Source of the DNA: Minisyncoccota bacterium
GTDB taxonomy: Bacteria; Patescibacteriota; Minisyncoccia; Phycocordibacterales; UBA9973
Assembly: GCA_018063015.1 (NCBI GenBank)
Contig: JAGORC010000002.1
Location: 1 to 54,025 of the forward strand
Direction: 5' to 3'
DNA: 54,025 bases
Shown: positions 22,327 to 39,101 of the stretch, one piece after another
Numbering within the stretch: the first letter of the stretch is position 1
Layout of the letters: each line of letters starts with the position of its first letter
Notes under the pieces: model-generated
Databases searched by the model: none
What the model was told of the DNA's origin: nothing
The model's input: only the letters and a program-made list of their open reading frames with translations
Made by a program: the position numbers and the translations under genes

Positions 22327-22911
22327 ATGAACGAAGAAGATAAAAAAGAAACAAAAGAAGAACCAGAGGATGATATTGTAGAATTTGAATATAACGTTGA
22401 TGGCGAAGAAGACTTAAAAAAGACTCTAAAGAAATTAAGAGGTGATTTAAAGGAGGCTAGAAAAGAAAAAGAAGAATACCTGACTGGTTGGCAGAAGGAG
22501 AGAGCAGACTTCGCTAATTATAAAAAAGATGAAGAGAGTAGAAAGGCGATGTTCTCAGAATCAGTTCGAGAAAGAATCCTAACTAAATTTCTAGATGTTA
22601 TTGATAGCTTCAATATGGCATTTGCTAATAAAGATGCTTGGGAGAAGGTGGACAAGAACTGGAGGATTGGAGTAGAGCATATTTACTCTCAACTAGAAGG
22701 AGTATTTGAAGAATACGGAGTTAAATCTTTCGGCGCTGAGGGTGATAATTTTGACCCTAATTTATATCACAGCATGGACACAATGGAGACAGATAAAAAA
22801 GACTTAGATCATAAAGTAGCCAAGGTTATTCAAAAAGGTTACAAGCTTGGTGAACGAGTAATTCGCCCAGCCAACGTAAACGTGTACGAATATCATGGAG
22901 AGTCAAACTAA
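22327..22911 (+). CDS. grpE: nucleotide exchange factor GrpE
   Basis: Coiled N-terminus, RERADFANYKK, and a C-terminal beta-domain ..GYKLGERVIRPANV. Confidence 0.9.
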   Translation: MNEEDKKETKEEPEDDIVEFEYNVDGEEDLKKTLKKLRGDLKEARKEKEEYLTGWQKERADFANYKKDEESRKAMFSESVRERILTKFLDVIDSFNMAFANKDAWEKVDKNWRIGVEHIYSQLEGVFEEYGVKSFGAEGDNFDPNLYHSMDTMETDKKDLDHKVAKVIQKGYKLGERVIRPANVNVYEYHGESN

Positions 22912-24616
22912 AACATATTCGACGAACAGAGTACGTGCTTGCCAGAATTGTAAGCTTGATTTCACAATAGAATCTGAAGATTTTAATTTCTATGAAAAAA
23001 TAAAAGTTCCTCCACCGACTTGGTGTCCGGAGTGTAGACAACAGAGACGTTATGCTTGGAGAAACGAGCGTACCTTATATAGAAGGAACTGTGATTTGTG
23101 TAATAAAAGTACTGTAACAATATATTCTCCAAACAAATCTTATAAAGTATATTGCAATTTTTGCTGGTGGAGTGATGGATGGGATTCGGCTTCTTACGGT
23201 AGAGATTTTGATTTTTCTCGTCCATTCTTTGAACAATTTAGAGAACTTCAACTAGACACTCCACGGATGGCTTTATTAAATAAAAATAGTACTAATTCAG
23301 AATACACAAATCATTCAGCTAATAACAAAGATGTCTATCTTTCGTTTTGTGTTTTTGACGGTGAGAATGTAATGAATAGTACTTGGGTTATGAAAAATTC
23401 TAGGGATTGTCTTGATTGTAGTTTTATTTATGAGAAAGGAGAGAGGCTGTATGAATGCATAGATTCTCGGTCTTCATATGGATCTCAGTATAGTTTATTT
23501 TTAAAGGATTGTTCAAACGTTTTTTATTCATTTGATTGTAGAAGTTCGAATGATTGCTTCTTATCTTCTAACTTACGTAATAAAAGTTATGTTTTTAAAA
23601 ACAAGCAGTATTCTAGGGAGGAGTATTTTGAAAAATTAAAAGAGTATAATCTTTCTTCATTTGAGACTAGAGAGAGATTAAATAAAGAATTTAAAGATAT
23701 GCTTGAGAATAGTGCTATATTTCGTTATGTAATCAGTGAAAGAAATATAAATTCTACAGGTTCATTAATGTTTGATTGTCGAAATGTTAAGTATTCTTTT
23801 GAAGTAGAAAAAGATGAAAATTGTAAATATATTTACGGAGGCCCTGAGCTAAAGGATTGTATGGACTTGTATCACGTAGGATACAATACAGAGCTTTGTT
23901 ATGAATGTCAGGGATGCACGAGGCTTTCTAATTGTCAGTTTTGTCATCTGTGTTATGACAATATGAACGTTATGTATTCTGACACTTGCCAAAATAGCCA
24001 GAATTTATTTGGTTGTGTATCTGTTAAAAAAGGGGAGTATATGATTTTCAATAAAAAATATTCCAAGGAAGACTTTCTGGTTCTTAAAGAAAAAATAATT
24101 GAACATATGAAAAAAACAGGTGAGTATGGAGAATTCTTCCCTCCTCAGATTGCACCTGTTTATTACAATGAGACACAGGGTAATCTTTATGCACCTATGA
24201 CCAAAGAGAAGGTTTTATCTTTAGGCTGGCAATGGGAAGATAACACTCCAGGAACCGTAGGCAAAGAAACAATAGATATTTTCTCTATACCAGACAGAAT
24301 AGAGGATGCACCAGATTCGTATTTAAAAGAAATTTTTGCCTGCATGGAATGCTCAAAGAACTACAATATATCTCAAAATGAGTTACTTTTTTATAAAAAA
24401 GAAAAAATTCCATTACCAAGAAGATGTCCAAACTGTAGATACAAAAGAAGATTTAATTTACGCCCTTTAAGACAACTTTGGCATAGAGAGTGTATGTGTG
24501 ACAAGAAACATTCTCATCATGAAGGAAAATGCGTAGAAGAATTTGAAACTTGTTATGCTCCAGATAGACCTGAGATAGTTTATTGCGAGAAGTGTTATAA
24601 CTCAGAGGTATATTGA
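22895..24616 (+). CDS. Cys-rich double-zinc-ribbon protein, paralog 1 (function unknown)
   Basis: 573 aa. Its ATG lies 17 nt inside the grpE 3' end. N-terminal CQNC...CPECR plus CDLC-x17-CNFC; Cys-ladder core; C-terminal CMEC...CPNCR plus ...YCEKCY. No signal peptide or TM. Confidence 0.85.
   Translation: MESQTKTYSTNRVRACQNCKLDFTIESEDFNFYEKIKVPPPTWCPECRQQRRYAWRNERTLYRRNCDLCNKSTVTIYSPNKSYKVYCNFCWWSDGWDSASYGRDFDFSRPFFEQFRELQLDTPRMALLNKNSTNSEYTNHSANNKDVYLSFCVFDGENVMNSTWVMKNSRDCLDCSFIYEKGERLYECIDSRSSYGSQYSLFLKDCSNVFYSFDCRSSNDCFLSSNLRNKSYVFKNKQYSREEYFEKLKEYNLSSFETRERLNKEFKDMLENSAIFRYVISERNINSTGSLMFDCRNVKYSFEVEKDENCKYIYGGPELKDCMDLYHVGYNTELCYECQGCTRLSNCQFCHLCYDNMNVMYSDTCQNSQNLFGCVSVKKGEYMIFNKKYSKEDFLVLKEKIIEHMKKTGEYGEFFPPQIAPVYYNETQGNLYAPMTKEKVLSLGWQWEDNTPGTVGKETIDIFSIPDRIEDAPDSYLKEIFACMECSKNYNISQNELLFYKKEKIPLPRRCPNCRYKRRFNLRPLRQLWHRECMCDKKHSHHEGKCVEEFETCYAPDRPEIVYCEKCYNSEVY
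22976..23038 (+). repeat. conserved 63-nt tract at the 5' end of paralog 1 (62/63 identical to 24670-24732)
   Basis: GAAGATTTTAATTTCTATGAAAAAATAAAAGTTCCTCCACCGACTTGGTGTCCGGAGTGTAGA, compared with the paralog 2 copy by hand. Confidence 0.9.
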
Positions 24617-24618
24617 TT

Positions 24619-26340
24619 ATGGAAACACGAAATTGTCAAAATTGTAAGAACGACTTTGTCATAGAACCTGAAGATTTTAATTTCTATGAAAAGATAAAAG
24701 TTCCTCCACCGACTTGGTGTCCGGAGTGTAGAATGATAAGAAGAATGTCTTGGAGAAACGTCAGATCACTCTATAAGCGTGAATGTGATTTGTGCAAAAA
24801 GTCCATTATAACAATGTATGATGAAAGTATGACTTCGCCTATTTATTGTCGAAGTTGTTTCTATGGTGATGGGTGGAACCCGATGGACTACGGAGTAGAC
24901 ATTGATTGGACTAAACCATTTCTTACTCAATGGAAAGAGCTCTGGGATAAAATTCCCAAGTACTCGCTTCTTTCTTGGAAAAATTCTCAAAATTCTGATT
25001 ATGCAAACATAGTAATTAATTCTAAAGATTGTTACTTGTCTTATTCTATTGTTGAGTCTGAAAAAATTCTTTATTCCGAAAACATAGATAACTCTCAAGA
25101 ATTAGTAGATTGTTATATGTGCATTGAAGGATGTGATTCTTGCTACTATACCCAAGGCAGAGGGAATTATGGAGGGAAATATTTATCACAATGCGTTAAC
25201 TGTGTTAACGTAAATTTTTGCTTTGATTGTAATAATTGCCAAGATTGCTTCATGTCTTATAACTTAAGAAACAAGAAATACGTATTTCGTGGAGTACAGC
25301 TTGGTGCAGAAGAATACAAGGAAGCTCTTGAAAAAGAGAATTTAGCAAGTCGTATGTCCTTAGATAAATTATATACAGAGTGGGTTAGTATGATTGAAGA
25401 GAAGGCGATACATCAGTATGCAAGAATAATCTTAGGTAAGGATTCCACAGGTAACTTCCTAAAGGGTGTAAAGAATATAAAGCATTGTTTCAATACATAT
25501 GATTCAGAAAATCTAGCATATGGAGCAAGAGGTATAAAATCAAAAGACGCATACGATTTTTATGGGTTAGTTGGGGAACTTACTTATGAGACCGTAGGGT
25601 GCTCATTTGGTGCATATGGGAATTTATTCTCTTTTAACTGCGATGCCAACAGAAGCATAGAGTACACTGCACTGTCATCAAATAGTTCTGATCTGTATGG
25701 TTGTGTCTCCTTACAGAAGAAACAACATTGTATCTTAAATAAACAATATTCTAAAGATGAATATTTTTCTCTTGTAGATAAAATAAGGAAGCATATGGAT
25801 GAAATGCCTTATATTGACGAGAAGGGAAGAGTATATAAATATGGTGAATTTTTCCCATTCGAGTTTTCTCCCTTTGGATATAACGAAACTTTCTGCCTGG
25901 ACTTCTTTACAACGACAGAGGTCGAAGCAAAAAATATGGGATATAAATGGAGAACTCAAAAAGAAAGAAATCATCTTGTTGATATAAAGACACAAGATGT
26001 TCCAGATAAAATATCAATAGTAGATGAAGCTATTTTAAATAAAGTTATAGAATGTAAACATTATGCAAGTGGATCGTTATCCTGTAATCATCAATGTACA
26101 GAAGCATTCAGGATTACTTATGATGAATTATTGTTCTATAAAAAATGGAATATACCACTTCCTAGACTTTGTCCAAATTGTAGGCATTACGAGAGGTTGC
26201 CTGTTTTTATGCAACCGATGAAACTCTGGCATCGAAAATGTATGAAGGATGGATGTACAAATGAATTTGAAACCTCATATTCTCCTGATAGGCCGGAAAT
26301 AGTATATTGCGAAACTTGTTATAACGCTGAAGTTTACTAA
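24619..26340 (+). CDS. Cys-rich double-zinc-ribbon protein, paralog 2
   Basis: Starts METRNCQNCK at an ATG 2 nt after the paralog 1 stop (the track's TTG at 24613 is rejected). Same architecture as paralog 1. Confidence 0.85.
   Translation: METRNCQNCKNDFVIEPEDFNFYEKIKVPPPTWCPECRMIRRMSWRNVRSLYKRECDLCKKSIITMYDESMTSPIYCRSCFYGDGWNPMDYGVDIDWTKPFLTQWKELWDKIPKYSLLSWKNSQNSDYANIVINSKDCYLSYSIVESEKILYSENIDNSQELVDCYMCIEGCDSCYYTQGRGNYGGKYLSQCVNCVNVNFCFDCNNCQDCFMSYNLRNKKYVFRGVQLGAEEYKEALEKENLASRMSLDKLYTEWVSMIEEKAIHQYARIILGKDSTGNFLKGVKNIKHCFNTYDSENLAYGARGIKSKDAYDFYGLVGELTYETVGCSFGAYGNLFSFNCDANRSIEYTALSSNSSDLYGCVSLQKKQHCILNKQYSKDEYFSLVDKIRKHMDEMPYIDEKGRVYKYGEFFPFEFSPFGYNETFCLDFFTTTEVEAKNMGYKWRTQKERNHLVDIKTQDVPDKISIVDEAILNKVIECKHYASGSLSCNHQCTEAFRITYDELLFYKKWNIPLPRLCPNCRHYERLPVFMQPMKLWHRKCMKDGCTNEFETSYSPDRPEIVYCETCYNAEVY
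24670..24732 (+). repeat. conserved 63-nt tract at the 5' end of paralog 2
   Basis: One mismatch (A/G) against 22976-23038. Confidence 0.9.
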
Positions 26341-27293: not shown

Positions 27294-29222
27294 ATGAGTA
27301 AAATTTTAGGTATAGATTTAGGAACAACAAACTCTGCTTTCGCTATTATCGAAGGTGGAGAACCAAAGATATTAGAAAATGCAGAAGGTGCACGAACTAC
27401 ACCTTCTATCGTAGCTACTGCTAAAAACGGCGATAGGCTTGTTGGAGTACTTGCTAAGCGTCAGTCTGTTACAAATCCTAAGAATACTATTTTCCAAATA
27501 AAGAGATTCGTAGGACATTCGTTCGATGAAGCAGATGTTCAGAAGGATATTCAAGCAGTTCCGTTTGAGGTTAAGAAATCTGATAATGGAGGTATTGATG
27601 TAAAAATGGGAGATAAGTATTACAGACCAGAAGAACTTTCTGCAATGATTCTTCAGAAAATAAAGGCAGATGCTGAAGCTAAAACAGGGGAGAAAATTAC
27701 AGAAGCTGTTATTACAGTTCCAGCATATTTCAACGATGCGCAAAGAAAGGCAACTAAGGATGCAGGACAGATTGCAGGACTTGATGTAAAGAGAATAATC
27801 AATGAGCCAACAGCTGCAGCGCTTGCTTATGGATTTAACAAAAAGAAAAATGAGAAGGTAGCAGTTTTTGACTTTGGAGGTGGAACATTCGATGTTTCTA
27901 TACTTGAGGTTGGGGAGGATGTGGTAGAGGTTAAGTCTACCGATGGAGATAGTCACCTAGGAGGTAAGGACATCGACCAGAAGATAATAAATTGGCTTGC
28001 TGATGGATTCCAGAAAGAGCACGGTATAGATCTAAGAAAAGATGCTTTGTCTAAGCAGAGACTAGATGATGCAGCAGAGAAGGCAAAGATAGAACTCTCT
28101 ACTGCAGTTGAATCTGAAATAAATATCCCATTCATAACATCTAGTGATGCAGGACCTCTGCACCTTGTTCGTACAATGAAACGTGCTGACTTAGAAGAAG
28201 TTTGTCGTGAATTCGTAGATCGTGCAATGATGATTACCAAGCGCGCTATAGAAGCTTCACCATTTAAGGTAGGTGATATAAATGAAGTAATACTTGTAGG
28301 TGGTCAGACTAGAATGCCTATGATTCAGAGCGAAGTTGAGAAATTCTTCGGCAAGAAGCCTCATATGGGAGTAAACCCTGATGAAGTTGTAGCATTAGGT
28401 GCTGCAGTTCAAGCTGGAGTTCTACAAGGAGATGTTAAGGATGTGCTACTTTTAGACGTTATTCCACTTTCACTAGGCATCGAGACATTAGGAGGAGTAG
28501 CTACAAAGCTAATAGAAAGAAATACAACAATTCCAGCTAGTAAATCTCAAGTATTCTCAACAGCAGCTGATAATCAGACATCTGTTGAAATACATATAGT
28601 TCAAGGTGAGCGACCAATGGCAACCGACAACAAATCTCTAGGACGATTTATCCTAGACGGAATCCCGCCAGCACCTCGAGGTATGCCTCAGGTTGAGGTA
28701 TCATTTGATGTGGATGCAAACGGAATTCTAAATGTGACAGCCAAGGATAAAGCATCAGGCAAAACTCAATCAATCAAGATTGAAGCAAGTTCAGGATTAA
28801 AGGAAGAAGACATCAAGAAGATGCAGTCTGATGCAGAAGCTCATGCAGAAGAAGACAAGAAGAAGAAAGAACTCGCTGATGCCAAGAATAATGCTGAGAT
28901 GATGATTTACACCGCTGAGAAAGCAGTGAAGGATAATGAAGCAAAGATTCCTGAAGACTTGAAGAAGAGCGTACATATAAAGATTGAAGAACTAAAAGCA
29001 GTTAAGGATGGAACAGATGGACAAATGATAAAGACAAAGAGTGATGAGCTCTCTACTGAGATGTCTAAGATAGGTGAAGCGGTTCAGAAGGCAGGAGGAC
29101 CAACTCCAGAAGGAAATGAAACCAACCCTTCGACAGGATCAGGGCAAGCAGAAGAACCAGCAAAAACTACAGACGCTGAGTTTAAAGAAACTCCACCAGA
29201 AGGTGAAGCACCAAAAGCTTAA
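27294..29222 (+). CDS. dnaK: molecular chaperone DnaK (Hsp70)
   Basis: [17 protein letters not shown]-type [23 protein letters not shown], and a substrate-binding domain and lid. Confidence 0.97.
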
Positions 29223-29279: not shown

Positions 29280-29287
29280 TAAACAAT

Positions 29288-31432
29288 ATGGAATTTAAAG
29301 ATTTACCTGAGAATAGGGACCTTACCTATATTGGGATGACTACCTATAGAGAGGAGCATAAGCTTTTCGGCATTAAGCGAAAGGACCGTCGTCAGCATGT
29401 CTACATACTAGGTAAATCAGGAACAGGTAAATCTGTACTTATGTTCAACATGATAATTCAGAACATCAAGAATGGTGAAGGTGTTTGTGTTGTTGACCCA
29501 CACGGAGAGCTTGTAGAAGGAGTGCTGTCCGCAATACCTCCTGAAAGAGTAAAGGATGTTGTCTACTTCAATCCTGCAGACACAGGATATCATATAGGGT
29601 TTAATGTTCTTGAACTTGTTGATTCTAAGTATAAACATCTTGTGGCTTCAGGACTCATGGGAATATTTACCAAGATTTGGGCAAACGCATGGAGTGCCAG
29701 AATGGAATATATTCTAAACAATGCTATCTTGGCCTTACTCGACACACCAGGTTCCACACTTCTCGGTATTCCTAGAATGCTTGTGGATAAAGATTATCGT
29801 CAGCAGATTATCTCTAATCTTAAAGATCCAGTTATTAAAGCTTTCTGGGTTCATGAATACGAAGCTTGGCAGGATAAATTTAGAAATGAAGCTATTGCTC
29901 CTATTCAGAACAAGGTGGGTCAGTTCCTCTCTACTTCAATAATAAGAAACGTCGTCGGCCAGTCTCAAAGTACCATAAATGTTTTCGACATAATGAACAC
30001 TGGTAAAATTTTCCTAGTAAATGTATCTAAGGGTAGAATAGGTGAAGACAACTCAGCACTTCTAGGAGGTATGATAATCACCAAGGTTCAACTTGCAGCG
30101 ATGGAACGTGTTCGTATTCCAGAAGAAGAAAGAAGAGATTTCTATCTATATGTCGACGAGTTTCAAAACTTCGTAACCGATGCCTTTGCCGGAATTCTTT
30201 CTGAGGCTCGTAAATACAGATTAAATCTAACTATAGCTCACCAGTATACAGCTCAGCTTGCCACTAAGGACAGCTCAGCAATGAGAGATGCAGTTTTCGG
30301 TAACGTTGGAACAATGATTATATTTAGAGTAGGTGCTGATGATGCGGAATTCCTAGAGAAAGAATTTGAGCCAGAATTTACTCCACAAGATATAGTCAAC
30401 CTTCCAAACTATAAAATTTATCTCAAGCTTATGATAGATGGTATAACTTCTCGTCCTTTTTCATCCAAGACTCTTCCTCCTTTAGTAAAATCTGGAAATA
30501 AGGAAATTGAAGACGAAGTAATCAAATCTTCTAGAGCACTTTATTGTAGGCCAAAGGAAGTGGTTGAAGAAGAAATAAATACATGGAGTGGAATGATGAC
30601 CGGGGATGATCTAGCTACAGGAGAGAAGTTCGACGCTGTGTGTTCTATCTGCAAGAAAGCAGCCACAGTTCCGTTTAAACCAGAGCCAGGAAGGCCTGTT
30701 TATTGTAAAGACTGTATAGGTAAAATAAAGTCTGGAGATTTCAAAGCCAAGAGGGGAGCTGGAGGTAAGATTGAATATGATGAATCAACATTTTATAAAC
30801 CTCTTTCAGATTTAGGTATTGAATTTCAAGCTAAGGATAGTAATCTAAATCAATCACCTTATAAACAAGATTCAAGACCTGTATCACCTAGAGGTAATGG
30901 TGTATTTTCAAAAATCAAAAACACCTTCATACCTCCAAAGAAAGATGCAACAGGGCAATCAATTAAACACAAAGAAGTGTATATCAATCCAAGGACTAAA
31001 GAACAACCAAAAGATAAACCAAGAGATAATTCTGCATTAAGAGAAATATTAAACAAAACTCTAAATGAGAATAAGGTATTCGAAGACAAGAAACCAGAAG
31101 TAAAACTTGAAGAGAGGCCTACTCCAGAACCAATATCTCTGGACTCTCTTAAGTCTAAGCCAGAGATTAATAAAATAACTCCAGCCAAAGACAGAAGCGC
31201 AAATGCTGAAGAAATGAATAAGCTGAAGGATCTTATTTCAGGTCAAACAGAAGTAAATTCTCCTCTACCAAAAGTAGAACCAAAGGTTGAACCTAAGCCT
31301 CAGCCAAAGGCTGATCAGCCTCCGGTTGAAGAACCCCCGAAAGTAGCACAATCAATCCCTAGCCAACCAGAACAACCTAAGACTAATGTTCGAGAAGTCC
31401 CAGAGGATGTATTAAAGAAAATCTTAGAATAA
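29288..31432 (+). CDS. soluble VirD4/TraD-like P-loop ATPase with C-terminal CxxC-x17-CxxC zinc ribbon and a long low-complexity tail (ATPase 1)
   Basis: Walker A ILGKSGTGKS at about residue 42 with no preceding TM helix. Also DPHGEL, Walker [26 protein letters not shown], then CSICKKAATVPFKPEPGRPVYCKDC, then a Lys/Pro/Glu-rich tail. Confidence 0.8.
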   Translation: MEFKDLPENRDLTYIGMTTYREEHKLFGIKRKDRRQHVYILGKSGTGKSVLMFNMIIQNIKNGEGVCVVDPHGELVEGVLSAIPPERVKDVVYFNPADTGYHIGFNVLELVDSKYKHLVASGLMGIFTKIWANAWSARMEYILNNAILALLDTPGSTLLGIPRMLVDKDYRQQIISNLKDPVIKAFWVHEYEAWQDKFRNEAIAPIQNKVGQFLSTSIIRNVVGQSQSTINVFDIMNTGKIFLVNVSKGRIGEDNSALLGGMIITKVQLAAMERVRIPEEERRDFYLYVDEFQNFVTDAFAGILSEARKYRLNLTIAHQYTAQLATKDSSAMRDAVFGNVGTMIIFRVGADDAEFLEKEFEPEFTPQDIVNLPNYKIYLKLMIDGITSRPFSSKTLPPLVKSGNKEIEDEVIKSSRALYCRPKEVVEEEINTWSGMMTGDDLATGEKFDAVCSICKKAATVPFKPEPGRPVYCKDCIGKIKSGDFKAKRGAGGKIEYDESTFYKPLSDLGIEFQAKDSNLNQSPYKQDSRPVSPRGNGVFSKIKNTFIPPKKDATGQSIKHKEVYINPRTKEQPKDKPRDNSALREILNKTLNENKVFEDKKPEVKLEERPTPEPISLDSLKSKPEINKITPAKDRSANAEEMNKLKDLISGQTEVNSPLPKVEPKVEPKPQPKADQPPVEEPPKVAQSIPSQPEQPKTNVREVPEDVLKKILE

Positions 31433-31433: not shown

Positions 31434-33137
31434 ATGCAACCTGAAACCAGAAATTGCCAGAATTGTAAAAATGATTTCATAATAGAAACTGAAGATTTTA
31501 ATTTCTACGAAAAGATAAAAGTCCCTCCACCGACTTGGTGTCCAGAATGTCGTGTTGAAAGAAGACTTTCTTTTGTTAATGCTTGGAACATATTTTGGCG
31601 TAATTGTGATAAATGTGGGAACAAGACAATGTCTGCATATCATCCAGATGAAAAAATGAAAGTTTTTTGTCAGCCTTGTTGGTGGAAAGATGATTGGGAT
31701 GGTACAGAGTATGCAATGGAATATAACCCTAATAAACCATTTCTAGAACAGGTAAAGGAACTCCAAGATAAAACTCCTCATGTAGCTCTTGAAACTAACT
31801 ATACTACTTTAAAAAATTCAGAATATTGTAATGGGGTAGCATGGGTTAAGGATTGCTATCTTACTTTCTGGGCTGATTATTGCGATAACGTTTTTTATTC
31901 CTCAATATTAAATAACTTAAAATATAGTTCGGATTGTTTAAGAGCTCAAGATTCCGAGCTATGTTATGAAGCTATCGGTATAAGCAAGTGTTACCAAACT
32001 TTCTTTTCTGAAGAATGCGATGCATGTGTAGATGTTTGGTTTTCCCGTAATTGTTACAGTTGCACAAATTGCATCGGATGTGCCAATCTTAGAGGAGCAT
32101 CATATTGCATTTTTAATATTAAATACAGTAAGGAGGAATTTGAACAGAAAGTAAAAGAATTAAGATTAGATTCATGGCGAGGACTACAAGAATTAAAGGA
32201 AGAAGCTAGAAAATTTTGGGTTACAAAACCAAAAAGAGAATACAATGGTAACACTTTAAATAAAAATGTTACTGGTGAATATGTTTTTAATTCAAAAAAT
32301 GCAAAAGAGATGTATGTATGTGTTGGTGCCGAGGATTGTAAATGGTGTCAATTTATAAGTGTAGGCCCAGCTAAAGAATGTATTGACTATTCAGGATGGG
32401 GTAATAACGTCAGCCAGATGTATGAGTGCGGTAATGTAGGGGAAAACGCAGCACAATGTAAATTTTCTTTTTACTGTTTTCCAGATAGTTTAAATCTTGA
32501 GTATTGCGGGTGGTGTACATCTGGTAAAAATAATCTCGGATGTATGAACCTAAAAAGAAAACAATACTGTATTTTAAATAAACAATATTCAAAAGAAGAA
32601 TTTGAAAAGCTAAAACTTAAAATTTTAGAAGATATGAAAGTTAACCCTTATGTTGATAAATTAGGACGGAATTTTTTTTATGGAGAATTTTTTCCACTTG
32701 AATTTAGTAAGTTTCCTTATAATAAATCAAACGCGATAAGATTTTTTCCAAAAAAGAAAGAAGACGCTATAACTCAAGGGTATTATTGGTTAGAGTCAGA
32801 AAATTTATCGTCAAACATCTCCATAGAATCATCTAGCTTACCAGACAGTATTAATGATACTAATGAATTAATTTTGAATGATATTATATCCTGTTCTCTA
32901 TGTAGAAAGGGATATAAGGTAACAAAGGGAGAGCTTGATTTACTAAGAAAATTAAAAATTCCATTACCCCACGAATGTCCAAAATGTAGAGAAAACGATA
33001 GATTTAATAGATGTAACTCACCTAAGCTGTACCAAAGAAGTTGCGATAAGTGCAAAAAGGAAATTAGTAGTGCTTTCTCACCAAATCGAGCAGAGATAGT
33101 TTATTGCGTTGAGTGTTATCAAGCAGAATTTTTATAA
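31434..33137 (+). CDS. Cys-rich double-zinc-ribbon protein, paralog 3
   Basis: 567 aa, starting 1 nt after the ATPase-1 stop. Same architecture; CDKC-x17-CQPC and CDKC-x17-CVEC. Confidence 0.85.
   Translation: MQPETRNCQNCKNDFIIETEDFNFYEKIKVPPPTWCPECRVERRLSFVNAWNIFWRNCDKCGNKTMSAYHPDEKMKVFCQPCWWKDDWDGTEYAMEYNPNKPFLEQVKELQDKTPHVALETNYTTLKNSEYCNGVAWVKDCYLTFWADYCDNVFYSSILNNLKYSSDCLRAQDSELCYEAIGISKCYQTFFSEECDACVDVWFSRNCYSCTNCIGCANLRGASYCIFNIKYSKEEFEQKVKELRLDSWRGLQELKEEARKFWVTKPKREYNGNTLNKNVTGEYVFNSKNAKEMYVCVGAEDCKWCQFISVGPAKECIDYSGWGNNVSQMYECGNVGENAAQCKFSFYCFPDSLNLEYCGWCTSGKNNLGCMNLKRKQYCILNKQYSKEEFEKLKLKILEDMKVNPYVDKLGRNFFYGEFFPLEFSKFPYNKSNAIRFFPKKKEDAITQGYYWLESENLSSNISIESSSLPDSINDTNELILNDIISCSLCRKGYKVTKGELDLLRKLKIPLPHECPKCRENDRFNRCNSPKLYQRSCDKCKKEISSAFSPNRAEIVYCVECYQAEFL
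31454..31531 (+). repeat. 78-nt 5' tract, 75/78 identical to 33159-33236 (paralog 4)
   Basis: TTGCCAGAATTGTAAAAATGATTTCA[T/C]AATAGAAACTGAAGATTTTAATTTCTACGAAAAGATAAAAGT[CC/TT]CTCCACC, aligned by hand. Confidence 0.9.
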
Positions 33138-33138
33138 T

Positions 33139-34845
33139 ATGAAACCCGAAAATAAAACTTGCCAGAATTGTAAAAATGATTTCACAATAGAAACTGAAGA
33201 TTTTAATTTCTACGAAAAGATAAAAGTTTCTCCACCAACCTTTTGCCCTAGGTGTAGGCTTATTCGTAGAATGACGAATACAAACGAACGTGTCTTATAC
33301 AAGAGGAAGTGTGATTTAACAGGGGAGTCCATTCTAAGCATGTTTCCTGAGGACGCTCCATTTCCAGTATATAAATCAGAAGCTTGGTATTCTGATGATT
33401 GGGATCCATATAAATACGGCATGGAGTATGATTTCTCTCGACCATTCTTCGAACAATTTCAGAAATTACTAAATAAAGTTCCCCGAATGGCTCTTGTAAA
33501 ACAAGGATTATCTAAGAATAGTGAATACACTCATAGGGTTCATGATATGAAGGATTCTTATATGGTCTTTCGTATGAGTGGAAGTCAGGATTCTATGTAT
33601 TCTTATGTTGGGAAAAATATTATAAATTGTGTTGATTGTTTAAGTATTTGGGATTCTGAGCTATGTTATGAGTGCATAGATTGTAACAACTGCTATAAGG
33701 TTAGATTTACAGAAGAGAGTCACGATTGTCGAGATTCTTTCTTCTTGTATGCATGCAGGAATTGTTCTGATTGTGTCGGATGTATTAATTTAGTAAATCA
33801 GCAATACTGTATTTTAAATCAAAAATATACAAAAGAAGAATATCAAGAAAAAATAAAAGAATTAAGATTAAACACCTTTTCGGGCATTGAAAGTTTTAAA
33901 GAAAAGTTTGAAGAATTCAAAAAAGATTTTCCAATCAAGGCAGTACATTCTCTAAAGTCAAATAATATTTCAGGTAATTGGATTGTGAATTGTCAAAATG
34001 TAAAAAACTCCTTTGGCTGTCTAAATGTAAAGGATGGTAAGAACCTATTTTGGATATTCAATGCACAAGACTGTATGGATTATTTCCAGTGGGGCAACAG
34101 TGCAGAGCTCGTGTATGAATCTGAGAATGTAGGAATAAACGTGTCTAGAATAAAATTCTCTTCTCAATGCTGGATGGGAGCACACGATTTGACTTACTGT
34201 GACTCATGTCCTGGAGCTAAGAATTGCTTTGGTTGTATAGGTACTAAACAAGGAGAATATTCAATTTTGAATAAAAAATACACCAAAGAAGAATATGAAG
34301 CTATGTTGCCTAAAGTAATAGAACATATGAACAATATGCCTTATATAGACGAACAGGGAATAGTATATAAATATGGAGAAAATTTCCCAATTTCTTTATC
34401 ACCATTTGCCTACAACGAAACCGCAGCAATGGATTTCTTCCCATTAACCAAGAATGAAATAGAAAATCTTGGGTATAAATGGAAAGAGAAGGAAAAGAAG
34501 AATTATCAAACAACAATAAAGAGTAATGATTTACCAGAAACGATATTAGAGACAGGAGAAAATATACTAAATGAGGTTATAGAGTGTGCCGAAAAAGATA
34601 AAGAATATTCAGTTGGAGCATATAAGATAACAGAGAATGAGCTCTCTTTTTACAAAAGAATGGACTTACCTTTACCTAGGGTATGTTTCGATGTAAGGCA
34701 CAAGAGACGTTTGATTAGACGTCCACAGCCTAATTTGTATGATAGAGTATGTACTAAGTGTAACGCAGAAGTAAAAACTGTTTACGATCAATCCCGTGCA
34801 CCAATAGTTTATTGCGAGAAATGTTATCAGCAAGAAGTATATTAA
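33139..34845 (+). CDS. Cys-rich paralog 4, with two partly degenerate zinc ribbons
   Basis: Starts MKPENKTCQNCK at an ATG 1 nt after the paralog 3 stop (the track start at 33109 is rejected). The N-terminal second ribbon and the C-terminal first ribbon have lost cysteines. Confidence 0.85.
   Translation: MKPENKTCQNCKNDFTIETEDFNFYEKIKVSPPTFCPRCRLIRRMTNTNERVLYKRKCDLTGESILSMFPEDAPFPVYKSEAWYSDDWDPYKYGMEYDFSRPFFEQFQKLLNKVPRMALVKQGLSKNSEYTHRVHDMKDSYMVFRMSGSQDSMYSYVGKNIINCVDCLSIWDSELCYECIDCNNCYKVRFTEESHDCRDSFFLYACRNCSDCVGCINLVNQQYCILNQKYTKEEYQEKIKELRLNTFSGIESFKEKFEEFKKDFPIKAVHSLKSNNISGNWIVNCQNVKNSFGCLNVKDGKNLFWIFNAQDCMDYFQWGNSAELVYESENVGINVSRIKFSSQCWMGAHDLTYCDSCPGAKNCFGCIGTKQGEYSILNKKYTKEEYEAMLPKVIEHMNNMPYIDEQGIVYKYGENFPISLSPFAYNETAAMDFFPLTKNEIENLGYKWKEKEKKNYQTTIKSNDLPETILETGENILNEVIECAEKDKEYSVGAYKITENELSFYKRMDLPLPRVCFDVRHKRRLIRRPQPNLYDRVCTKCNAEVKTVYDQSRAPIVYCEKCYQQEVY
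33159..33236 (+). repeat. 78-nt 5' tract matching paralog 3
   Basis: See 31454-31531. Confidence 0.9.
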
Positions 34846-34847
34846 TT

Positions 34848-36512
34848 ATGGAAACAAGAGAATGCAAAAAATGTAATAAAAGTTTCTCCATGGATAAAGA
34901 CGAACTTGGGTTCTATGAGAAGATGAATGTTCCAATACCTAAGGTTTGTCCTGATTGTCGATTTGTTATGAAAGCTCTTTTTAGAAATGAGACAACTCTC
35001 TATTCAGGTAGAAAATGTGATTTATGTGGCAAATCTATAATATCAATCTATCATCCAAAATCCCCATATACTATTTACTGTTATGATTGCTTTTATTCTG
35101 AAAAATGGGACGCAAAAAATTATGCACTAGATTATGATGAGTCCAAGCCATTCTTAGATCAGTTCAAGGAATTAATGTTAAAAGTTCCTAAAATCAATAC
35201 TTACGTTTCTCTCGGCGGCGGTCCCAACATAAATAGTGATTATACAAATATGACTAGTGGAGCAAGGAATTCTTATCTTATTTTTAATACTACGGTTGCT
35301 GAAGATACTATGTATACAAGAGGTCTGAGGAACGTGAAAGATTCTTGTGATCTTTATTTTGGAACAAATGTTGAACGTTGCTACGACTCTATTAATGTTC
35401 AAGAATCTAATGGGATTCTGTGGAGTCAGAATGTTAGTGGATGTGTTGATTCAGCTTTTATATTAAATGGGCGAGGGCTAATCAATTGTTTTGGTTGCGT
35501 TAATTTAAACAATAAATCATATTATTTTCTTAATAAACAACTCACCCCAGAAGAATATCAAGAAAAAGTTAAGGAAATAATGGGCTCATATGAAAAGATA
35601 GAAAAATTTAAACAAGAGTTTAAAGAATTTGCTTCTAAATTTCCAAGAAGAGAAAACAATAATATACAAACAAAAGATTCTTCAGGAGATTATATTTTTA
35701 GATCCAAAAATGTAAAAGACTCATTTGAAGTAGCAAATAGTGAATATTGCCGGTACGCTTATTCTTCTAAAGAGATGAAAGATTCCTATGGCATCATAGG
35801 TTATGGTGTAAAATCAGAAAAAATGCTTGAAGTAGTTGCAACTGGATTTTCAAGTAATGTAATAGGTTCTTACGGACTAGAAAATTCTACAAATACTTTG
35901 TACGGATTTTATATACGTGGTTGCAATAATTGTATTGGTTGTGATGGACTACACCACGCGGATTATGCGATTTTAAATAAAACTTACTTAAGAGAAGAAT
36001 ATGAGCGATTAAAAAATAAAATTATTAAAGAACTTACTGACCAAGACCTGTATGGATTAATGATACCTCCACAACTTGCACCTTTTGCATACAATGAAAC
36101 CATTGCTCTATATGAGTCTCCATTAGAAAAAGAGGAAGTCATTAAAACGGGTTGGAGATGGGAAGATGATGTTCAGAAAACCGAAGGACAAGAAACTATT
36201 AAATCAGAAAATATTACAGATAATATTAAAAATATTAATAATTCTATAATTAAAGAAATCCTCAAATGTATTGATTGTTTTAGAAATTACAAAATTACCG
36301 AACAGGAATTTATTTTTTACAAAAAGATGAATATTCCCATACCTAGAAAATGTTTCTTTTGTCGTCACAAAGATCGAATACAGAAAAGGGGACCATATAA
36401 ATTCTGGGATAGAAAATGTGTTAAATGCGATAAGGGTATAGTAACTAACTATTCCCCAGAAAGGCCAGAGATAGTTTATTGCGAGAAATGTTATCAGCAA
36501 GAGGTTTATTAG
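34848..36512 (+). CDS. Cys-rich double-zinc-ribbon protein, paralog 5 (most divergent N-terminus)
   Basis: Starts METRECKKCNK at an ATG 2 nt after the paralog 4 stop. CDLC-x17-CYDC and CVKC-x17-CEKC. Confidence 0.85.
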   Translation: METRECKKCNKSFSMDKDELGFYEKMNVPIPKVCPDCRFVMKALFRNETTLYSGRKCDLCGKSIISIYHPKSPYTIYCYDCFYSEKWDAKNYALDYDESKPFLDQFKELMLKVPKINTYVSLGGGPNINSDYTNMTSGARNSYLIFNTTVAEDTMYTRGLRNVKDSCDLYFGTNVERCYDSINVQESNGILWSQNVSGCVDSAFILNGRGLINCFGCVNLNNKSYYFLNKQLTPEEYQEKVKEIMGSYEKIEKFKQEFKEFASKFPRRENNNIQTKDSSGDYIFRSKNVKDSFEVANSEYCRYAYSSKEMKDSYGIIGYGVKSEKMLEVVATGFSSNVIGSYGLENSTNTLYGFYIRGCNNCIGCDGLHHADYAILNKTYLREEYERLKNKIIKELTDQDLYGLMIPPQLAPFAYNETIALYESPLEKEEVIKTGWRWEDDVQKTEGQETIKSENITDNIKNINNSIIKEILKCIDCFRNYKITEQEFIFYKKMNIPIPRKCFFCRHKDRIQKRGPYKFWDRKCVKCDKGIVTNYSPERPEIVYCEKCYQQEVY

Positions 36513-36541: not shown

Positions 36542-37993
36542 ATGCCAAGGCAGAATAGGGTTCAAATAATCAAATACGGTCCACCACCACCAGAGCTTCC
36601 TGTTTTCGGGAAAGTTGACCCCGAAGAAACATCTTTTATAGGACGAACGAACTACGTAGCTTCTCTTGAAGAAAAGAAGTTTATTTTTGGTATTAAGCGT
36701 GTAGATAGAAGAAGACACTTATATATCATAGGTAAGTCAGGAGTAGGAAAGACTAAACTCCTAGAGCTTCTAATTCGTCAGGATGTGACTTACAAACATG
36801 GGCTTTGTCTTATTGACCCGCATGGAGACGTCATTGATGCGATACTAGATTATATTCCTAAAGATCGAATTGAAGATGTGTGTCTTATTGACCCATCAGA
36901 TGTAGATTATCCCGCATCATTTAATCCTCTTGCAAACGTTGACCCAGCATTTAAATTTATTCTTACTCAAGGTTTGATAGAAGTTCTAGAGAAACAGTTC
37001 GGTGCGAACTGGACTCCTCGTCTTGAACACGTATTCCGATTTACTTGTCTTGCGTTGCTTGACTATCCTCATGCGACGATGCGTGGAATGATATCCATGC
37101 TTACTGATAGAAACTACAGACAGAAGGTTGTGGAATATATAACAGACGACATGGTTAAGAGATTCTTCGCAATAGAATTCGCTGATTGGTCTGAGAAATT
37201 CGATACCGACGCGATCATTCCGCTTGTTAACAAGCTAGGTCAGTTCCTGTCTGATCCACTCCTTCGAAACATATTCGGACAGAAAGAAAACAAAATTGAC
37301 ATAACTAGGCTTATGAATGAAGAGAAGATAGTACTGATAAATCTTTCAAAGGGACGAATCGGAGAAGAGAACTCTAGCTTCTTCGGTTCTATGTTCTTGA
37401 CCAAGATTAAGCAAGCTGGAATGGAACGTCAAAATATTCCAGAGAAAGACCGTAAAGATTTCTATCTATACATAGACGAGTTCCACAATATAGTCACTCA
37501 AACATTTGAAAACATTCTTTCCGAGGCTCGTAAGTATGCACTCAACTTAACAATAGCTCATCAATACATTGGTCAGCTTATTCCTCAGGTTCAACACGCA
37601 GTACTAGGAAATACAGGAAGTCTAATATGCTTTCGAGTTGGAGGTGAAGATGCAGTTAAGCTTAAACCAGAATTTGCACCACTTTTCGACGTCAAAGATA
37701 TGATCAATCTTGCTGTTACAGAATTCTACGTGAAGATGACAATAGATGGAGAATCCTATGATCCATTTTCAGCTGAGACTCTCAAAGTCTTACCACCACC
37801 ACATGTTTCCTATAGAGAGGAAATTTTAGAATCATCAAGAACAAAATATTCTATTCCTAAAGATGCTGCAGCCAAACTGATTGCCGAAGAAGAGTCCACA
37901 ATAATAAGAAGTGCAGAAGAAAAGGCAATCATAGAGGGTAAGCCAAGAAAAGACGACAAAATATCTTCACAAGAGGCTGAGCCTATGATATAG
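36542..37993 (+). CDS. soluble VirD4/TraD-like P-loop ATPase, ATPase 2 (no zinc ribbon or tail)
   Basis: [41 protein letters not shown]. It is collinear with the ATPase-1 core and ends about 60 residues after the core. Confidence 0.8.
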
Positions 37994-38003: not shown

Positions 38004-39101
38004 ATGAAGAAAGATTATTATGAAATTTTAGGCGTTAATAAGGGCGCTTCAAAAGACGAGATAAAAAAGGCTTTTTATAAGCTTGCTCATAAATATCACC
38101 CTGACAAGAAGGAAGGGGATGAGAAGAAATTTAAAGAGGTAAACGAAGCCTACCAGGTCCTTTCTGATGACTCTAAACGTTCAAAATATGACCAATTTGG
38201 CTCTGGATTTGAAAATATGGGTGGATTCCAGGGTGGAGGCCAACAAGGTGGATTTGGAGGGTTTGAGGGCTTTGATTTCGGAGGATTTCAGAATGGTGGA
38301 GCTGATTTTGACTTTGGGAATTTAAACGACATATTCAGTGATTTCTTTGGCGGAGGAATGGGTGGAGGACAACAGACCAAGAGAGGAAGAGACATATCAA
38401 CAGAACTGCAGATATCTTTTGAGGATTCTATATTTGGTGTTACTAGAAAAGTTTTAATAACCAAAACATCAAACTGTGACACATGTAGTGCTACTGGTTC
38501 TAAACCAGGAACCAAGATGGAGTCATGTAAGAAGTGTAACGGGCAAGGTAGAATTAGAGAAACCAAGAAATCTTTCTTAGGCACAATATCAAGTACTAAA
38601 GTCTGTGAAGATTGTTTCGGTAGAGGAGAAATTCCAAAAGAGAAATGTGATAAATGTAAGGGTGCTGGAGTCTTAAGAAAAGAAGAAGAAATATCCATCA
38701 TAATTCCTTCTGGAATAAGAGATGGAGAAATGATACGAATGACTGGTATGGGAGAAGCTATATCTCATGGAACACCTGGTGACTTGTATATAAAGATTAA
38801 TGTATTACCTCACTCTGTGTTTAGAAGAGAGGGTAGTGACTTAGTAATGACTCTGGATCTTAAACTTTCAGAAGCTTTACTAGGATTAGAACACAACATT
38901 ACAACTCTTGATGGAAATATAAAAGTAAAGATTCCAGAAGGTGTTTCAGTAAACGAAATTCTAAGAGTAAAAGGTAGAGGTGTCCCTACCGCTAAAGGCA
39001 AGAGAGGAGATATACTTATAAAACTTAATATTAAACTTCCTTCAAAGCTCTCTAAGAAGTCTAAAGAATTAATAGAAGAGTTAAAGAAAGAAGGAATATA
39101 A
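38004..39101 (+). CDS. dnaJ: molecular chaperone DnaJ
   Basis: J domain with HPD (KYHPDK), a G/F-rich region, and four CxxCxGxG repeats ([32 protein letters not shown]). Confidence 0.95.

What the first reader, a model, noticed from the sequence alone, without database searches (positions are those of the whole stretch)
30641..30715. ATPase 1 carries the same CxxC-x17-CxxC ribbon found at both ends of the Cys-rich paralogs
After the ATPase core, ATPase 1 reads CSIC-KKAATVPFKPEPGRPVY-CKDC. That is exactly 17 residues between the two CxxC pairs, and it ends in the same P..VYC..C context as the paralog termini (SPDRPEIVYCEKC). A shared small domain between a motor and the neighbouring array links the two gene sets independently of gene order. 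It could act as a common docking or oligomerisation element or as a shared ligand-binding element. I recall that a 'CxxC-x17-CxxC domain' model exists in TIGRFAMs, but I cannot verify the accession. ATPase 2 lacks this ribbon.
Basis: partly seen in the sequence, partly recalled or inferred. Interest (0 to 1): 0.7.

Follow-up and report, generated by a model that had tools for sequence, protein, structure and literature searches.

The report
Known zinc finger on orphan ATPase
The flagged 75 bases encode a real but already catalogued small zinc finger that nearly all candidate-phyla-radiation bacteria carry on this orphan motor ATPase, and it occurs in too many other proteins to show that the motor touches the neighbouring cysteine-rich proteins.

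Summary
ATPase 1 (29288-31432) reads CSIC-x17-CKDC at 30641-30715. It passes the curated cut-offs of TIGR04272 (47.8 bits, cut-off 36) and Pfam PF23477 zf_Tbcl_2 (46.7 bits, cut-off 27). ATPase 2 has no CxxC. The five paralogs carry seven exact and three degenerate x17 ribbons. Each is the second half of a two-finger module (CxxC-x24-CxxC, 18-19 residues, CxxC-x17-CxxC) present at both ends.

The ribbons are homologous but not the same subtype. The ATPase ribbon is the canonical form found in small basic multi-ribbon proteins of Patescibacteria and Archaea (54.8 bits against their profile). It scores only 14-21 bits against the paralog ribbon profiles.

The ribbon sits on ATPase-1 orthologues in 65 of 80 species loci, and 52 of those 65 have no paralog within 10 kb. 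Paralog arrays adjoin the ribbon-less ATPase 2 at least as often. Public annotation already names the orthologues 'CxxC-x17-CxxC domain-containing protein'.

So the shared ribbon is weak evidence of a link. The gene-order link itself is real: a recurrent ATPase1-(paralog)n-ATPase2 cassette, here inserted in grpE-dnaK-dnaJ. The ATPase core is a soluble TrwB-like coupling-protein homologue. The ribbon most likely heads a flexible C-terminal recruitment arm.

The parts
29288..31432 (+). ATPase 1: soluble TrwB/VirD4-like P-loop ATPase, 714 aa. Walker A GKSGTGKS at 29411-29434, Walker B FYLYVDE at 30140-30160.
   Evidence: PF10412 41.9 bits, PF02534, PF01935. The AF2 model's best PDB match is TrwBdeltaN70 1e9s, E 1e-12, TM 0.6. 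No TM segment, max KD(19) 1.12.
30593..30628 (+). Flexible linker (aa 436-447) between the ATPase core and the ribbon.
   Evidence: AF2 pLDDT below 50 for residues 436-447.
30641..30715 (+). The flagged ribbon: CSIC-x17-CKDC (aa 452-476), a canonical PF23477/TIGR04272 treble-clef zinc finger. Pfam envelope 30626-30721.
   Evidence: Exact x17 ribbon in 120 of 120 closest homologues. The AF2 model shows a hairpin at 448-451/458-461 and a helix at 474-481.
30728..31429 (+). Disordered K/E/P-rich tail of ATPase 1 (aa 481-714) with conserved short motifs (F.KPL.DLGIEF, N.AL.E.LNK.L, KDR.A..EDM.KLK, C-terminal EVPEDVL[RK]KILE).
   Evidence: Composition K 15%, P 12%, E 10%. Motif conservation in orthologues. 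pLDDT below 50 after residue 487.
23090..23164 (+). P1 N-module x17 ribbon (CDLC-x17-CNFC).
   Evidence: PF23477 21.9 bits.
24784..24858 (+). P2 N-module x17 ribbon.
   Evidence: PF23477 13.2 bits.
31605..31679 (+). P3 N-module x17 ribbon.
   Evidence: PF23477 27.1 bits, at the gathering score.
33042..33116 (+). P3 C-module x17 ribbon.
   Evidence: PF23477 30.1 bits, TIGR04272 33.5 bits.
34750..34824 (+). P4 C-module x17 ribbon.
   Evidence: PF23477 15.4 bits.
35016..35090 (+). P5 N-module x17 ribbon.
   Evidence: PF23477 16.9 bits.
36417..36491 (+). P5 C-module x17 ribbon.
   Evidence: PF23477 19.3 bits.
24491..24595 (+). P1 C-module ribbon, degenerate. The first knuckle is replaced by CMC plus an insertion with His and Cys. 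The second knuckle CEKC is intact.
   Evidence: No Pfam hit. 41.4 bits against the paralog-C profile.
26239..26319 (+). P2 C-module ribbon, variant with first knuckle CxxxxC.
   Evidence: PF23477 16.6 bits.
33310..33384 (+). P4 N-module ribbon relic. Three of the four Cys ligands are lost (CDLTGES...VYKSEA).
   Evidence: 40.6 bits against the paralog-N profile, 1.4 bits against the canonical profile.
22940..23035 (+). P1 N-terminal x24 ribbon, a different finger (weak PF13451). Equivalent exact copies at 24341-24436, 24634-24729, 31455-31550, 32892-32987, 33160-33255, 34863-34958 and 36267-36362. Degenerate copies at 26053-26181 and 34585-34695.
   Evidence: Not homologous to the x17 ribbon by hhalign.
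22895..26340 (+). Cys-rich paralogs P1 (22895-24616) and P2 (24613-26340).
   Evidence: Family of more than 7,000 'hypothetical' proteins.
31434..36512 (+). Cys-rich paralogs P3 (31434-33137), P4 (33109-34845) and P5 (34812-36512), lying between the two ATPases.
   Evidence: AF2 model of P3 has pTM 0.80 and no PDB fold match.
36542..37993 (+). ATPase 2: ribbon-less and tail-less paralogue of ATPase 1 (483 aa, no CxxC, Walker A and B intact).
   Evidence: Orthologues never carry the ribbon.
22327..22911 (+). grpE (context: the cassette is inserted in the chaperone operon).
   Evidence: PF01025 124.8 bits.
27294..29222 (+). dnaK, immediately upstream of ATPase 1.
   Evidence: translation. 71-75% identical in L001-L009.
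38004..39101 (+). dnaJ, immediately downstream of ATPase 2.
   Evidence: PF00226, PF00684, PF01556.

Best explanation
The segment encodes a canonical Zn(Cys)4 treble-clef finger of the PF23477/TIGR04272 'CxxC-x17-CxxC' family. It is an old, Patescibacteria-wide appendage of a soluble, membrane-anchor-less TrwB/VirD4-like ATPase (an 'orphan T4CP'). A disordered linker of about 12 residues tethers it behind the motor. A ~230-residue disordered K/E/P-rich tail with conserved short motifs follows it. I infer that the finger is the folded head of a C-terminal recruitment arm, the role that C-terminal extensions play in bona fide coupling proteins. I also infer that its ligand is a general one, most likely nucleic acid or a nucleoprotein partner, rather than the neighbouring paralogs specifically. 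The paralogs carry a diverged relative of the same finger, always as the second half of a two-finger module (x24 then x17) at each end. Shown here: domain identity, conservation, subtype relationships, tethering and gene-neighbourhood statistics. Inferred: zinc binding (by homology), the recruitment role and the ligand class.
For: Domain identity above curated cut-offs. An exact x17 ribbon occurs right after the core in 120 of 120 close homologues and in 65 of 80 species-level loci across many Patescibacteria lineages. Ribbon residues are as invariant as the motor. The core is nearest to TrwBdeltaN70, then Cag-beta, DotL and HerA, with Walker A and B intact and no TM segment. The AF2 model shows linker 436-447 and the tail after 487 with pLDDT below 50, and the ribbon as a hairpin plus a helix starting at the second CxxC. 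The canonical ribbon subtype is the only folded element of small RG- and K-rich proteins in Patescibacteria and Archaea. The ATPase ribbon scores 54.8 bits against that profile, and hhalign gives 99.6%. ATPase ribbons carry a mean net charge of +2.8. M. mazei CxxC-x17-CxxC small proteins bind zinc by ICP-MS (PMC12704099). Patescibacteria hold 5,713 VirD4-like T4CP homologues, of which only 148 lie near virB4, and exaptation has been suggested (PMC12102498). From established knowledge: the C-terminal extensions of TraD, DotL and VirD4 recruit substrates or adaptors.
Against: No experiment or structure shows what any PF23477 finger binds. Treble-clef fingers bind proteins as readily as nucleic acids. 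Ribbon pLDDT in the ATPase model is only 57-75. The charge argument is weak, since small-protein ribbons average +0.8. The paralog arrays really are enriched next to this ATPase, so a protein partner among them is not excluded.
Confidence: 0.6

Rival explanations
1. The ribbon is a shared docking or oligomerisation element through which ATPase 1 contacts the paralogs, either ribbon to ribbon or through a common partner. On this view the domain sharing itself marks a functional unit.
For: The ribbons are homologous. Within 1.34 Mb of ATPase-centred sequence the ribbon occurs only in ATPase orthologues and paralogs. The cassette ATPase1-(paralog)n-ATPase2 recurs despite rearrangements.
Against: Of 65 ribbon-bearing ATPase-1 loci, 52 have no paralog within 10 kb, and Fisher p = 0.45. 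The ribbon shows no paralog-specific signature. The ATPase ribbon is far closer to the ribbons of unrelated small proteins than to paralog ribbons. Ribbon-less ATPase 2 adjoins arrays more often, 17 loci versus 12. L022 and L127 keep the cassette without an intact ATPase-1 ribbon.
Confidence: 0.15
2. The paralogs are trans-acting, ribbon-bearing adaptors or clients of the ribbon-less ATPase 2. ATPase 1 carries the equivalent finger in cis. The two motors would then recognise the same ligand class by different routes.
For: ATPase 2 lacks both ribbon and tail. ATPase 2 and the paralogs are both confined to the Paceibacteria-like subset of loci, and they co-occur in 11 of the 14 paralog-positive ATPase-1-centred loci. 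Six paralog-centred loci have ATPase 2 only.
Against: This is purely a neighbourhood inference. More than half of the large paralog-centred loci have no ATPase nearby. No interaction data exist.
Confidence: 0.12
3. The ribbon, and the Cys-rich paralogs, are redox- or metal-responsive elements tied to proteostasis, in the manner of the Hsp33 zinc centre or the DnaJ zinc fingers. This would explain their position inside grpE-dnaK-dnaJ.
For: The cassette sits between grpE, dnaK and dnaJ and keeps that position in L001-L009 and L153. The paralogs are 4.4-7.2% Cys.
Against: Most ribbon-bearing ATPase-1 orthologues are not near dnaK. There is no similarity to the Hsp33 or DnaJ zinc domains. The operon insertion is lineage-specific.
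Confidence: 0.08
4. The ribbon is a purely structural zinc staple that stabilises the ATPase C-terminus or hexamer and has no ligand.
For: Small zinc ribbons often play structural roles. The finger is strongly conserved.
Against: The model separates it from the core by a disordered linker. The same finger exists as stand-alone tandem repeats in small proteins with no enzyme to stabilise. It was lost repeatedly without loss of the ATPase, in 15 of 80 loci.
Confidence: 0.05

Closest known systems
TIGR04272 cxxc_cxxc_Mbark / Pfam PF23477 zf_Tbcl_2 ('CxxC-x17-CxxC domain', probable treble-clef zinc finger)
   Same: The ATPase-1 ribbon is a full-length, above-threshold member. It has four Cys with the exact x17 spacing, the VPFKP...RPVYC core, and a predicted hairpin plus helix. 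Orthologues are already named after this domain by NCBI and JGI.
   Different: Nothing differs for the ATPase ribbon. The paralog ribbons are diverged: only 2 of 10 reach the Pfam gathering score, and each is fused behind an x24 finger.
Small basic multi-ribbon proteins: ~200-aa double-ribbon proteins of Patescibacteria, and 90-340-aa proteins with 2-6 ribbons in Thermoplasmatota, Nitrosopumilaceae and Methanosarcina
   Same: They carry the same canonical ribbon subtype. ATPase 1 shows 51% mean and 68% maximum core identity, 54.8 bits, and hhalign 99.6%. The ribbon is flanked by disordered, charged sequence in both. M. mazei members bind zinc (PMC12704099).
   Different: They have no ATPase. 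The ribbons are in tandem, with RG-rich linkers and a Lys-rich tail. They are stand-alone genes. Their function is also unknown.
Type IV coupling proteins (TrwB, VirD4, TraD, DotL, Cag-beta)
   Same: The ATPase core fold and motifs match. Coupling proteins also have a C-terminal extension that serves as the substrate or adaptor recruitment site. This is established knowledge for TraD-TraM and DotL-IcmSW.
   Different: There is no N-terminal membrane anchor. No VirB4, relaxase or other T4SS gene is in the window. Scores are far below every NCBIfam equivalog cut-off. The genes sit in a housekeeping chaperone operon. This matches the 'orphan T4CP homologues' of Patescibacteria noted in PMC12102498.
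Pfam PF13451 zf_Tbcl (probable treble-clef domain)
   Same: It is the best Pfam match for the paralogs' outer CxxC-x24-CxxC finger, which has the FYEK...PP..CP.CR motif and a basic helix.
   Different: Scores of 17-19 bits lie below the gathering score of 24. It is not present in ATPase 1 and is not homologous to the x17 ribbon.

Membership tests
PF23477 zf_Tbcl_2 / TIGR04272 CxxC-x17-CxxC domain (ATPase-1 ribbon) | Profile score above the curated cut-off | tested here: met
   TIGR04272 47.8 bits against 36. PF23477 46.7 bits (whole protein) and 53.6 bits (isolated ribbon) against 27.
PF23477 zf_Tbcl_2 / TIGR04272 CxxC-x17-CxxC domain (ATPase-1 ribbon) | Two CxxC knuckles separated by exactly 17 residues | tested here: met
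   CSIC-x17-CKDC at aa 452-476. The same spacing occurs in 120 of 120 close homologues.
PF23477 zf_Tbcl_2 / TIGR04272 CxxC-x17-CxxC domain (ATPase-1 ribbon) | Treble-clef topology: knuckle, beta-hairpin, and a helix starting at the second CxxC | tested here: met
   The AF2 model has strands 448-451 and 458-461 and helix 474-481, with ribbon pLDDT only 57-75. The same topology appears in the better-resolved P3 ribbons.
PF23477 zf_Tbcl_2 / TIGR04272 CxxC-x17-CxxC domain (ATPase-1 ribbon) | Binds one zinc ion through the four Cys | not testable with these tools
   Known only by homology: M. mazei CxxC-x17-CxxC small proteins bind Zn by ICP-MS (PMC12704099).
PF23477 zf_Tbcl_2 (paralog x17 ribbons) | Profile score above the gathering score | tested here: inconclusive
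   Only P3 N (27.1 bits) and P3 C (30.1 bits) reach 27. The others score 13-22 bits or give no hit. PF23477 is still the top hit for 8 of 10. Profile-profile comparison supports homology: 96.8% with the ATPase ribbons and 96.9-97.2% with the canonical small-protein ribbons.
Type IV coupling protein (VirD4/TrwB/TraD) | TrwB-like nucleotide-binding core with Walker A and B | tested here: met
   PF10412 41.9 bits against 20.5 and PF02534 31.7 bits against 20.1. Foldseek matches 1e9s at E 1e-12. Motifs found.
Type IV coupling protein (VirD4/TrwB/TraD) | N-terminal transmembrane anchor | tested here: not met
   Walker A starts at residue 42. The maximum Kyte-Doolittle 19-residue mean is 1.12.
Type IV coupling protein (VirD4/TrwB/TraD) | Encoded with VirB4, a relaxase or other T4SS or conjugation genes | tested here: not met
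   All other window ORFs are housekeeping: ribosomal proteins, RpoA, GrpE, DnaK, DnaJ, tRNA synthetases, DnaB, RecR.
Type IV coupling protein (VirD4/TrwB/TraD) | Reaches an NCBIfam equivalog or subfamily cut-off for TraD or VirD4 | tested here: not met
   The best is TIGR03743 at 48.3 bits against 366, then NF045973 at 48.5 bits against 250.
PF13451 zf_Tbcl (paralog x24 ribbons) | Profile score above the gathering score | tested here: not met
   17.2-18.7 bits against 24. It is the nearest family only.
Known anti-phage defence systems (PADLOC) | Significant match of the paralogs or ATPases to a defence-system protein model | tested here: not met
   The paralogs give no hit. The ATPases give only generic P-loop and HerA-type matches (mad8 51 bits, HerA 32 bits).

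The most novel reading that the evidence does not exclude
ATPase1-(Cys-rich paralog)n-ATPase2 is a Paceibacteria-specific machine built from exapted, soluble type-IV-coupling-protein motors and co-expressed with GrpE, DnaK and DnaJ. In this reading the double-finger end-modules of the paralogs act as trans adaptors or clients for the ribbon-less ATPase 2, while ATPase 1 carries the equivalent finger in cis. The CxxC-x17-CxxC finger would then be the common handle for one ligand class, either nucleic acid or an unfolded or zinc-loaded protein.
Probability: 0.15. Interest if true: 0.6.

Novelty: already known. Interest (0 to 1): 0.3.

Why it matters
The ribbon itself adds little. It is a catalogued domain in an architecture that public pipelines already name. 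The value here is mostly negative and clarifying: sharing a small zinc finger should not be counted as independent evidence that two gene sets work together.

The context is the worthwhile lead. Patescibacteria encode thousands of VirD4-like ATPases away from any secretion system, and their function is an acknowledged open question (PMC12102498). This window shows a pair of them, anchor-less, one with a zinc-finger arm. They flank arrays of a large uncharacterised Cys-rich family and sit inside the grpE-dnaK-dnaJ operon. That arrangement gives concrete, testable partners for the orphan motors.

Tried and rejected
- **PDB sequence search with the ribbon profile.** Only non-significant LIM, TFIIB and PCF11-like matches appeared (E >= 0.05), so no structural homologue is available by sequence.
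- **Foldseek of the P3 model against the PDB.** No match, so the paralog fold remains unassigned.
- **Literature search for the accessions** (PF23477, TIGR04272, zf_Tbcl_2, IPR026363, PF13451, zf-trcl). No papers were found.
- **NCBIfam and PADLOC on the paralogs.** Nothing beyond sub-threshold TIGR04272 hits. A defence-system reading is rejected. The orthologues are also conserved at constant length (62-70% identity, 567 aa), so they are not diversifying.
- **Genomic context of a small double-ribbon protein (P0481).** It is a stand-alone gene next to unrelated genes and is uninformative.
- **CIRCE operator search.** No match with up to 3 mismatches.
- **Inverted repeat upstream of dnaK.** The pattern was not found in any fetched locus.
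- **LIM-domain reading of the two-finger module.** Rejected, because the fingers are 18-19 residues apart rather than 2, and the LIM scores are non-significant.
- **Recent domain transfer between ATPase 1 and the paralogs.** Rejected, because the ribbons are only 24-40% identical and belong to different subtypes.
- **Limit of the neighbourhood test.** Only 10 kb flanks could be fetched, so I could not check whether paralogs lie elsewhere in genomes whose ATPase-1 locus lacks them.
Full report
**1. The observation**

The ORF 29288-31432 (+, 714 aa) reads CSIC-KKAATVPFKPEPGRPVY-CKDC at residues 452-476, which is nucleotides 30641-30715. There are exactly 17 residues between the two CxxC pairs. 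The protein has only six cysteines. None of 300,000 random placements of six Cys in 714 residues reproduced the pattern.

TIGR04272 'cxxc_cxxc_Mbark, CxxC-x17-CxxC domain' scores 47.8 bits against a curated cut-off of 36. Pfam PF23477 zf_Tbcl_2 ('probable treble clef zinc finger') scores 46.7 bits on the protein and 53.6 bits on the isolated ribbon, against a gathering score of 27. ATPase 2 (36542-37993) contains no CxxC at all.

**2. The paralog ribbons**

A six-frame scan finds the exact C..C-x17-C..C pattern eight times in the 54 kb window. One is in ATPase 1 and seven are in the five Cys-rich paralogs. Three further paralog sites are degenerate:
- P1 C-terminus has an insertion in the first knuckle.
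- P2 C-terminus has CxxxxC.
- P4 N-terminus has lost three of its four Cys ligands, keeping one.

Each paralog end carries a two-finger module: CxxC-x24-CxxC, then 18-19 residues rich in Arg, then CxxC-x17-CxxC. The outer x24 finger matches Pfam PF13451 zf_Tbcl only weakly (17-19 bits, gathering score 24). It is not homologous to the x17 finger, with hhalign probability 2-39%.

In 120 orthologues of P3 the four zinc sites are almost always intact: x17 in 120 (N) and 113 (C), x24 in 117 (N) and 120 (C).

**3. Same family, different subtype**

PF23477 is the best Pfam hit for 8 of the 10 paralog ribbons tested (the degenerate P4 N-terminal copy was not scanned). Only two reach the gathering score: P3 N at 27.1 bits and P3 C at 30.1 bits.

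Profiles built from many orthologues align in full register. ATPase ribbons against paralog-N or paralog-C ribbons give 96.8% hhalign probability, so they are homologous.

A scan of 1.84 billion representative proteins with a mixed 8-ribbon profile returned 2,633 clusters. Beside the paralog family, the list holds many small (90-340 aa), very basic proteins. These consist of 2-6 tandem ribbons with the consensus MFDATCDKCGKECEVPFKPTGGKPVYCRDCF, separated by RG-rich linkers.

The ATPase-1 ribbon scores 54.8 bits against a profile of those ribbons, which did not include it. It scores only 20.6 and 14.5 bits against the paralog-N and paralog-C profiles. Core identity is 51% on average (maximum 68%) with small-protein ribbons, and 24-40% with the window's paralog ribbons. 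ATPase against small-protein ribbons gives hhalign 99.6%.

The small proteins include archaeal ones from Thermoplasmatota and Nitrosopumilaceae. They also include a family of at least 1,317 double-ribbon proteins in Patescibacteria such as Falkowbacteria, Kerfeldbacteria and Paceibacterota, all annotated PF23477. The ribbon is therefore a mobile, promiscuous module. ATPase 1 carries its canonical form and the paralogs a derived one.

**4. Distribution of the ribbon on the ATPase**

The 120 best homologues of ATPase 1 (65-98% identical) all carry PF23477 and the exact spacing. Many are already named 'CxxC-x17-CxxC domain-containing protein' by NCBI or JGI.

A scan of one genome per species found at least 598 species with an orthologue. 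The 80 best loci come from many Patescibacteria lineages. In 65 of these loci the ATPase-1 orthologue has the exact ribbon directly behind the core.

Paralogs lie within 10 kb in only 14 of the 80 loci. All 14 are of the Paceibacteria/Parcubacteria type. Ribbon presence is not associated with a paralog neighbour: 13 of 65 against 1 of 15, Fisher p = 0.45. The ribbon consensus is the same with and without paralog neighbours.

**5. The gene-order link is real but does not depend on the ribbon**

Paralog-positive loci show the same genes in rearranged orders. Examples are ATPase2|ATPase1|Cys|Cys, six Cys genes followed by ATPase1, ATPase1|Cys(-)|ATPase2(-), and Cys|ATPase1|Cys|Cys|Cys.

In 80 paralog-centred metagenome loci, 18 have such an ATPase. 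Among the 31 loci of at least 12 kb, 13 do. My estimate of the chance expectation is about 5%, assuming two ATPase genes and 20 kb windows in a genome of about 0.8 Mb. This figure is an inference.

The ribbon-less ATPase-2 type is the commoner neighbour: 17 loci against 12, with six loci holding ATPase 2 only. L022 and L127 keep ATPase1-Cys-ATPase2 with an ATPase 1 that has no intact ribbon. L002 retains a 53-aa relic of a paralog C-terminus between ATPase 1 and ATPase 2, which shows that arrays turn over at this site.

**6. The ATPase**

Both ATPases have intact Walker A and B motifs and no hydrophobic segment (maximum KD(19) 1.12). An AF2 model of residues 1-510 (pLDDT 74.9, pTM 0.73) is closest to TrwBdeltaN70 (1e9s, E 1e-12, TM about 0.6). 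Cag-beta, DotL and HerA follow.

In the model, residues 436-447 and everything after 487 are disordered. The ribbon forms a hairpin (448-451 and 458-461) and a helix (474-481) that starts at the second CxxC. The remaining ~230 residues are K/E/P-rich, with short motifs conserved among orthologues, including the C-terminal EVPEDVL[RK]KILE.

No NCBIfam TraD or VirD4 model comes near its cut-off. The window has no VirB4, relaxase or other T4SS gene.

This matches the published observation of 5,713 VirD4-like T4CP homologues in 2,918 Patescibacteria genomes, of which only 148 lie near virB4. That study suggested possible exaptation (PMC12102498).

**7. Context**

The gene order is as follows:
- grpE (22327-22911)
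- P1 and P2
- a PaaX-like regulator on the minus strand (26337-26855)
- a 92-aa ORF
- dnaK (27294-29222)
- ATPase 1
- P3, P4 and P5
- ATPase 2
- dnaJ (38004-39101)

The same frame recurs in L001-L009 and L153. It occurs with or without paralogs: L002, L007 and L009 have none.

**8. Interpretation**

The ribbon is a canonical PF23477 finger, and zinc binding is inferred from characterised M. mazei homologues (PMC12704099). It sits on a flexible tether behind a TrwB-like motor and ahead of a motif-bearing disordered tail.

By analogy with the C-terminal extensions of TraD, DotL and VirD4 (established knowledge), it most likely acts as the folded head of a recruitment arm. Three points make nucleic acid or a nucleoprotein the most likely ligand class:
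- its kinship with the fingers of RG- and K-rich small proteins;
- its positive charge (+2.8 on average);
- the DNA-translocase ancestry of the motor.

None of this is demonstrated. Docking to the paralogs is not excluded but has no specific support. A more interesting possibility is that the paralogs serve the ribbon-less ATPase 2 as trans adaptors or clients.

**9. Verdict**

The ribbon and its architecture are already known in public annotation. The unexplained item worth follow-up is the ATPase1-(paralog)n-ATPase2 cassette in the chaperone operon, not the ribbon.

Noticed in passing
window 22327-39101: The two T4CP-like ATPases and all five Cys-rich paralogs are inserted inside the chaperone operon. 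The order is grpE | P1 P2 | PaaX-like regulator (-) | small ORF | dnaK | ATPase1 | P3 P4 P5 | ATPase2 | dnaJ. The frame grpE-regulator-dnaK-ATPase1-(paralogs)-ATPase2-dnaJ is conserved in L001-L009 and L153.
   Followed up: partly
L002 11392-11550: A 53-aa ORF between ATPase 1 and ATPase 2 is a relic of a paralog C-terminus (...EFETSYAPERPEIVYCEKCYQQEVY). The locus otherwise has no paralogs. This suggests arrays are gained and lost at this exact site.
   Followed up: partly
window 24613, 33109, 34812 (ORF starts): The mechanical TTG starts of P2, P4 and P5 overlap the preceding gene. Internal ATGs at 24619, 33139 and 34848 give N-termini METRxC.../MKPENKTC... that match P3 and the orthologues. 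On these starts the x24 finger begins 6-8 residues from the true N-terminus.
   Followed up: partly
window 26875-26926: A 21-nt inverted repeat (TTTGACAAGT ... ACTTGTCAAA) lies in the divergent intergenic region between the PaaX-like regulator and dnaK. It overlaps a TTGTCA-N17-TATATAAT promoter-like site and is a candidate operator. No CIRCE element is present in the window. The exact repeat was not found in other loci.
   Followed up: partly
window 26979-27257: A 92-aa ORF directly upstream of dnaK has no Pfam, NCBIfam or PADLOC hit. It gave no tblastn match (E <= 1e-5) in any of the 160 related loci searched. It may be lineage-specific or not a gene.
   Followed up: partly
window 30728-31429 (ATPase 1 aa 481-714): The disordered K/E/P-rich tail contains several short motifs conserved across orthologues (F.KPL.DLGIEF, N.AL.E.LNK.L, ISL..LK, KDR.A..EDM.KLK, C-terminal EVPEDVL[RK]KILE). 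N.AL.E.LNK.L loosely resembles the LN.KLDKI helix that follows the ribbons in the small double-ribbon proteins.
   Followed up: partly
L116 (metagenome contig Ga0080064_1000616), also L118, L125, L133, L138: Tandem arrays of six to eight (nine ORF fragments in L116) Cys-rich paralogs, all on one strand. Individual paralogs have their own conserved orthologous groups: P3 orthologues are 62-70% identical at a constant 567 aa. The family is therefore old and not rapidly diversifying.
   Followed up: partly
window 31434-33137 (P3): The centre of the paralog is an internal duplication of Cys-rich repeats, each ending in a C.lNK.YsKEEY helix motif. The AF2 model is confident overall (pTM 0.80), but Foldseek finds no PDB relative. 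The fold appears undescribed.
   Followed up: partly
P0340 (192 aa), P0366 (61 aa), P0390 (260 aa): Shortened versions of the paralog family exist. They keep only the N- and/or C-terminal finger modules, with the Cys-rich centre missing or shortened. This suggests the end-modules can function or persist on their own, though some may be fragments.
   Followed up: no
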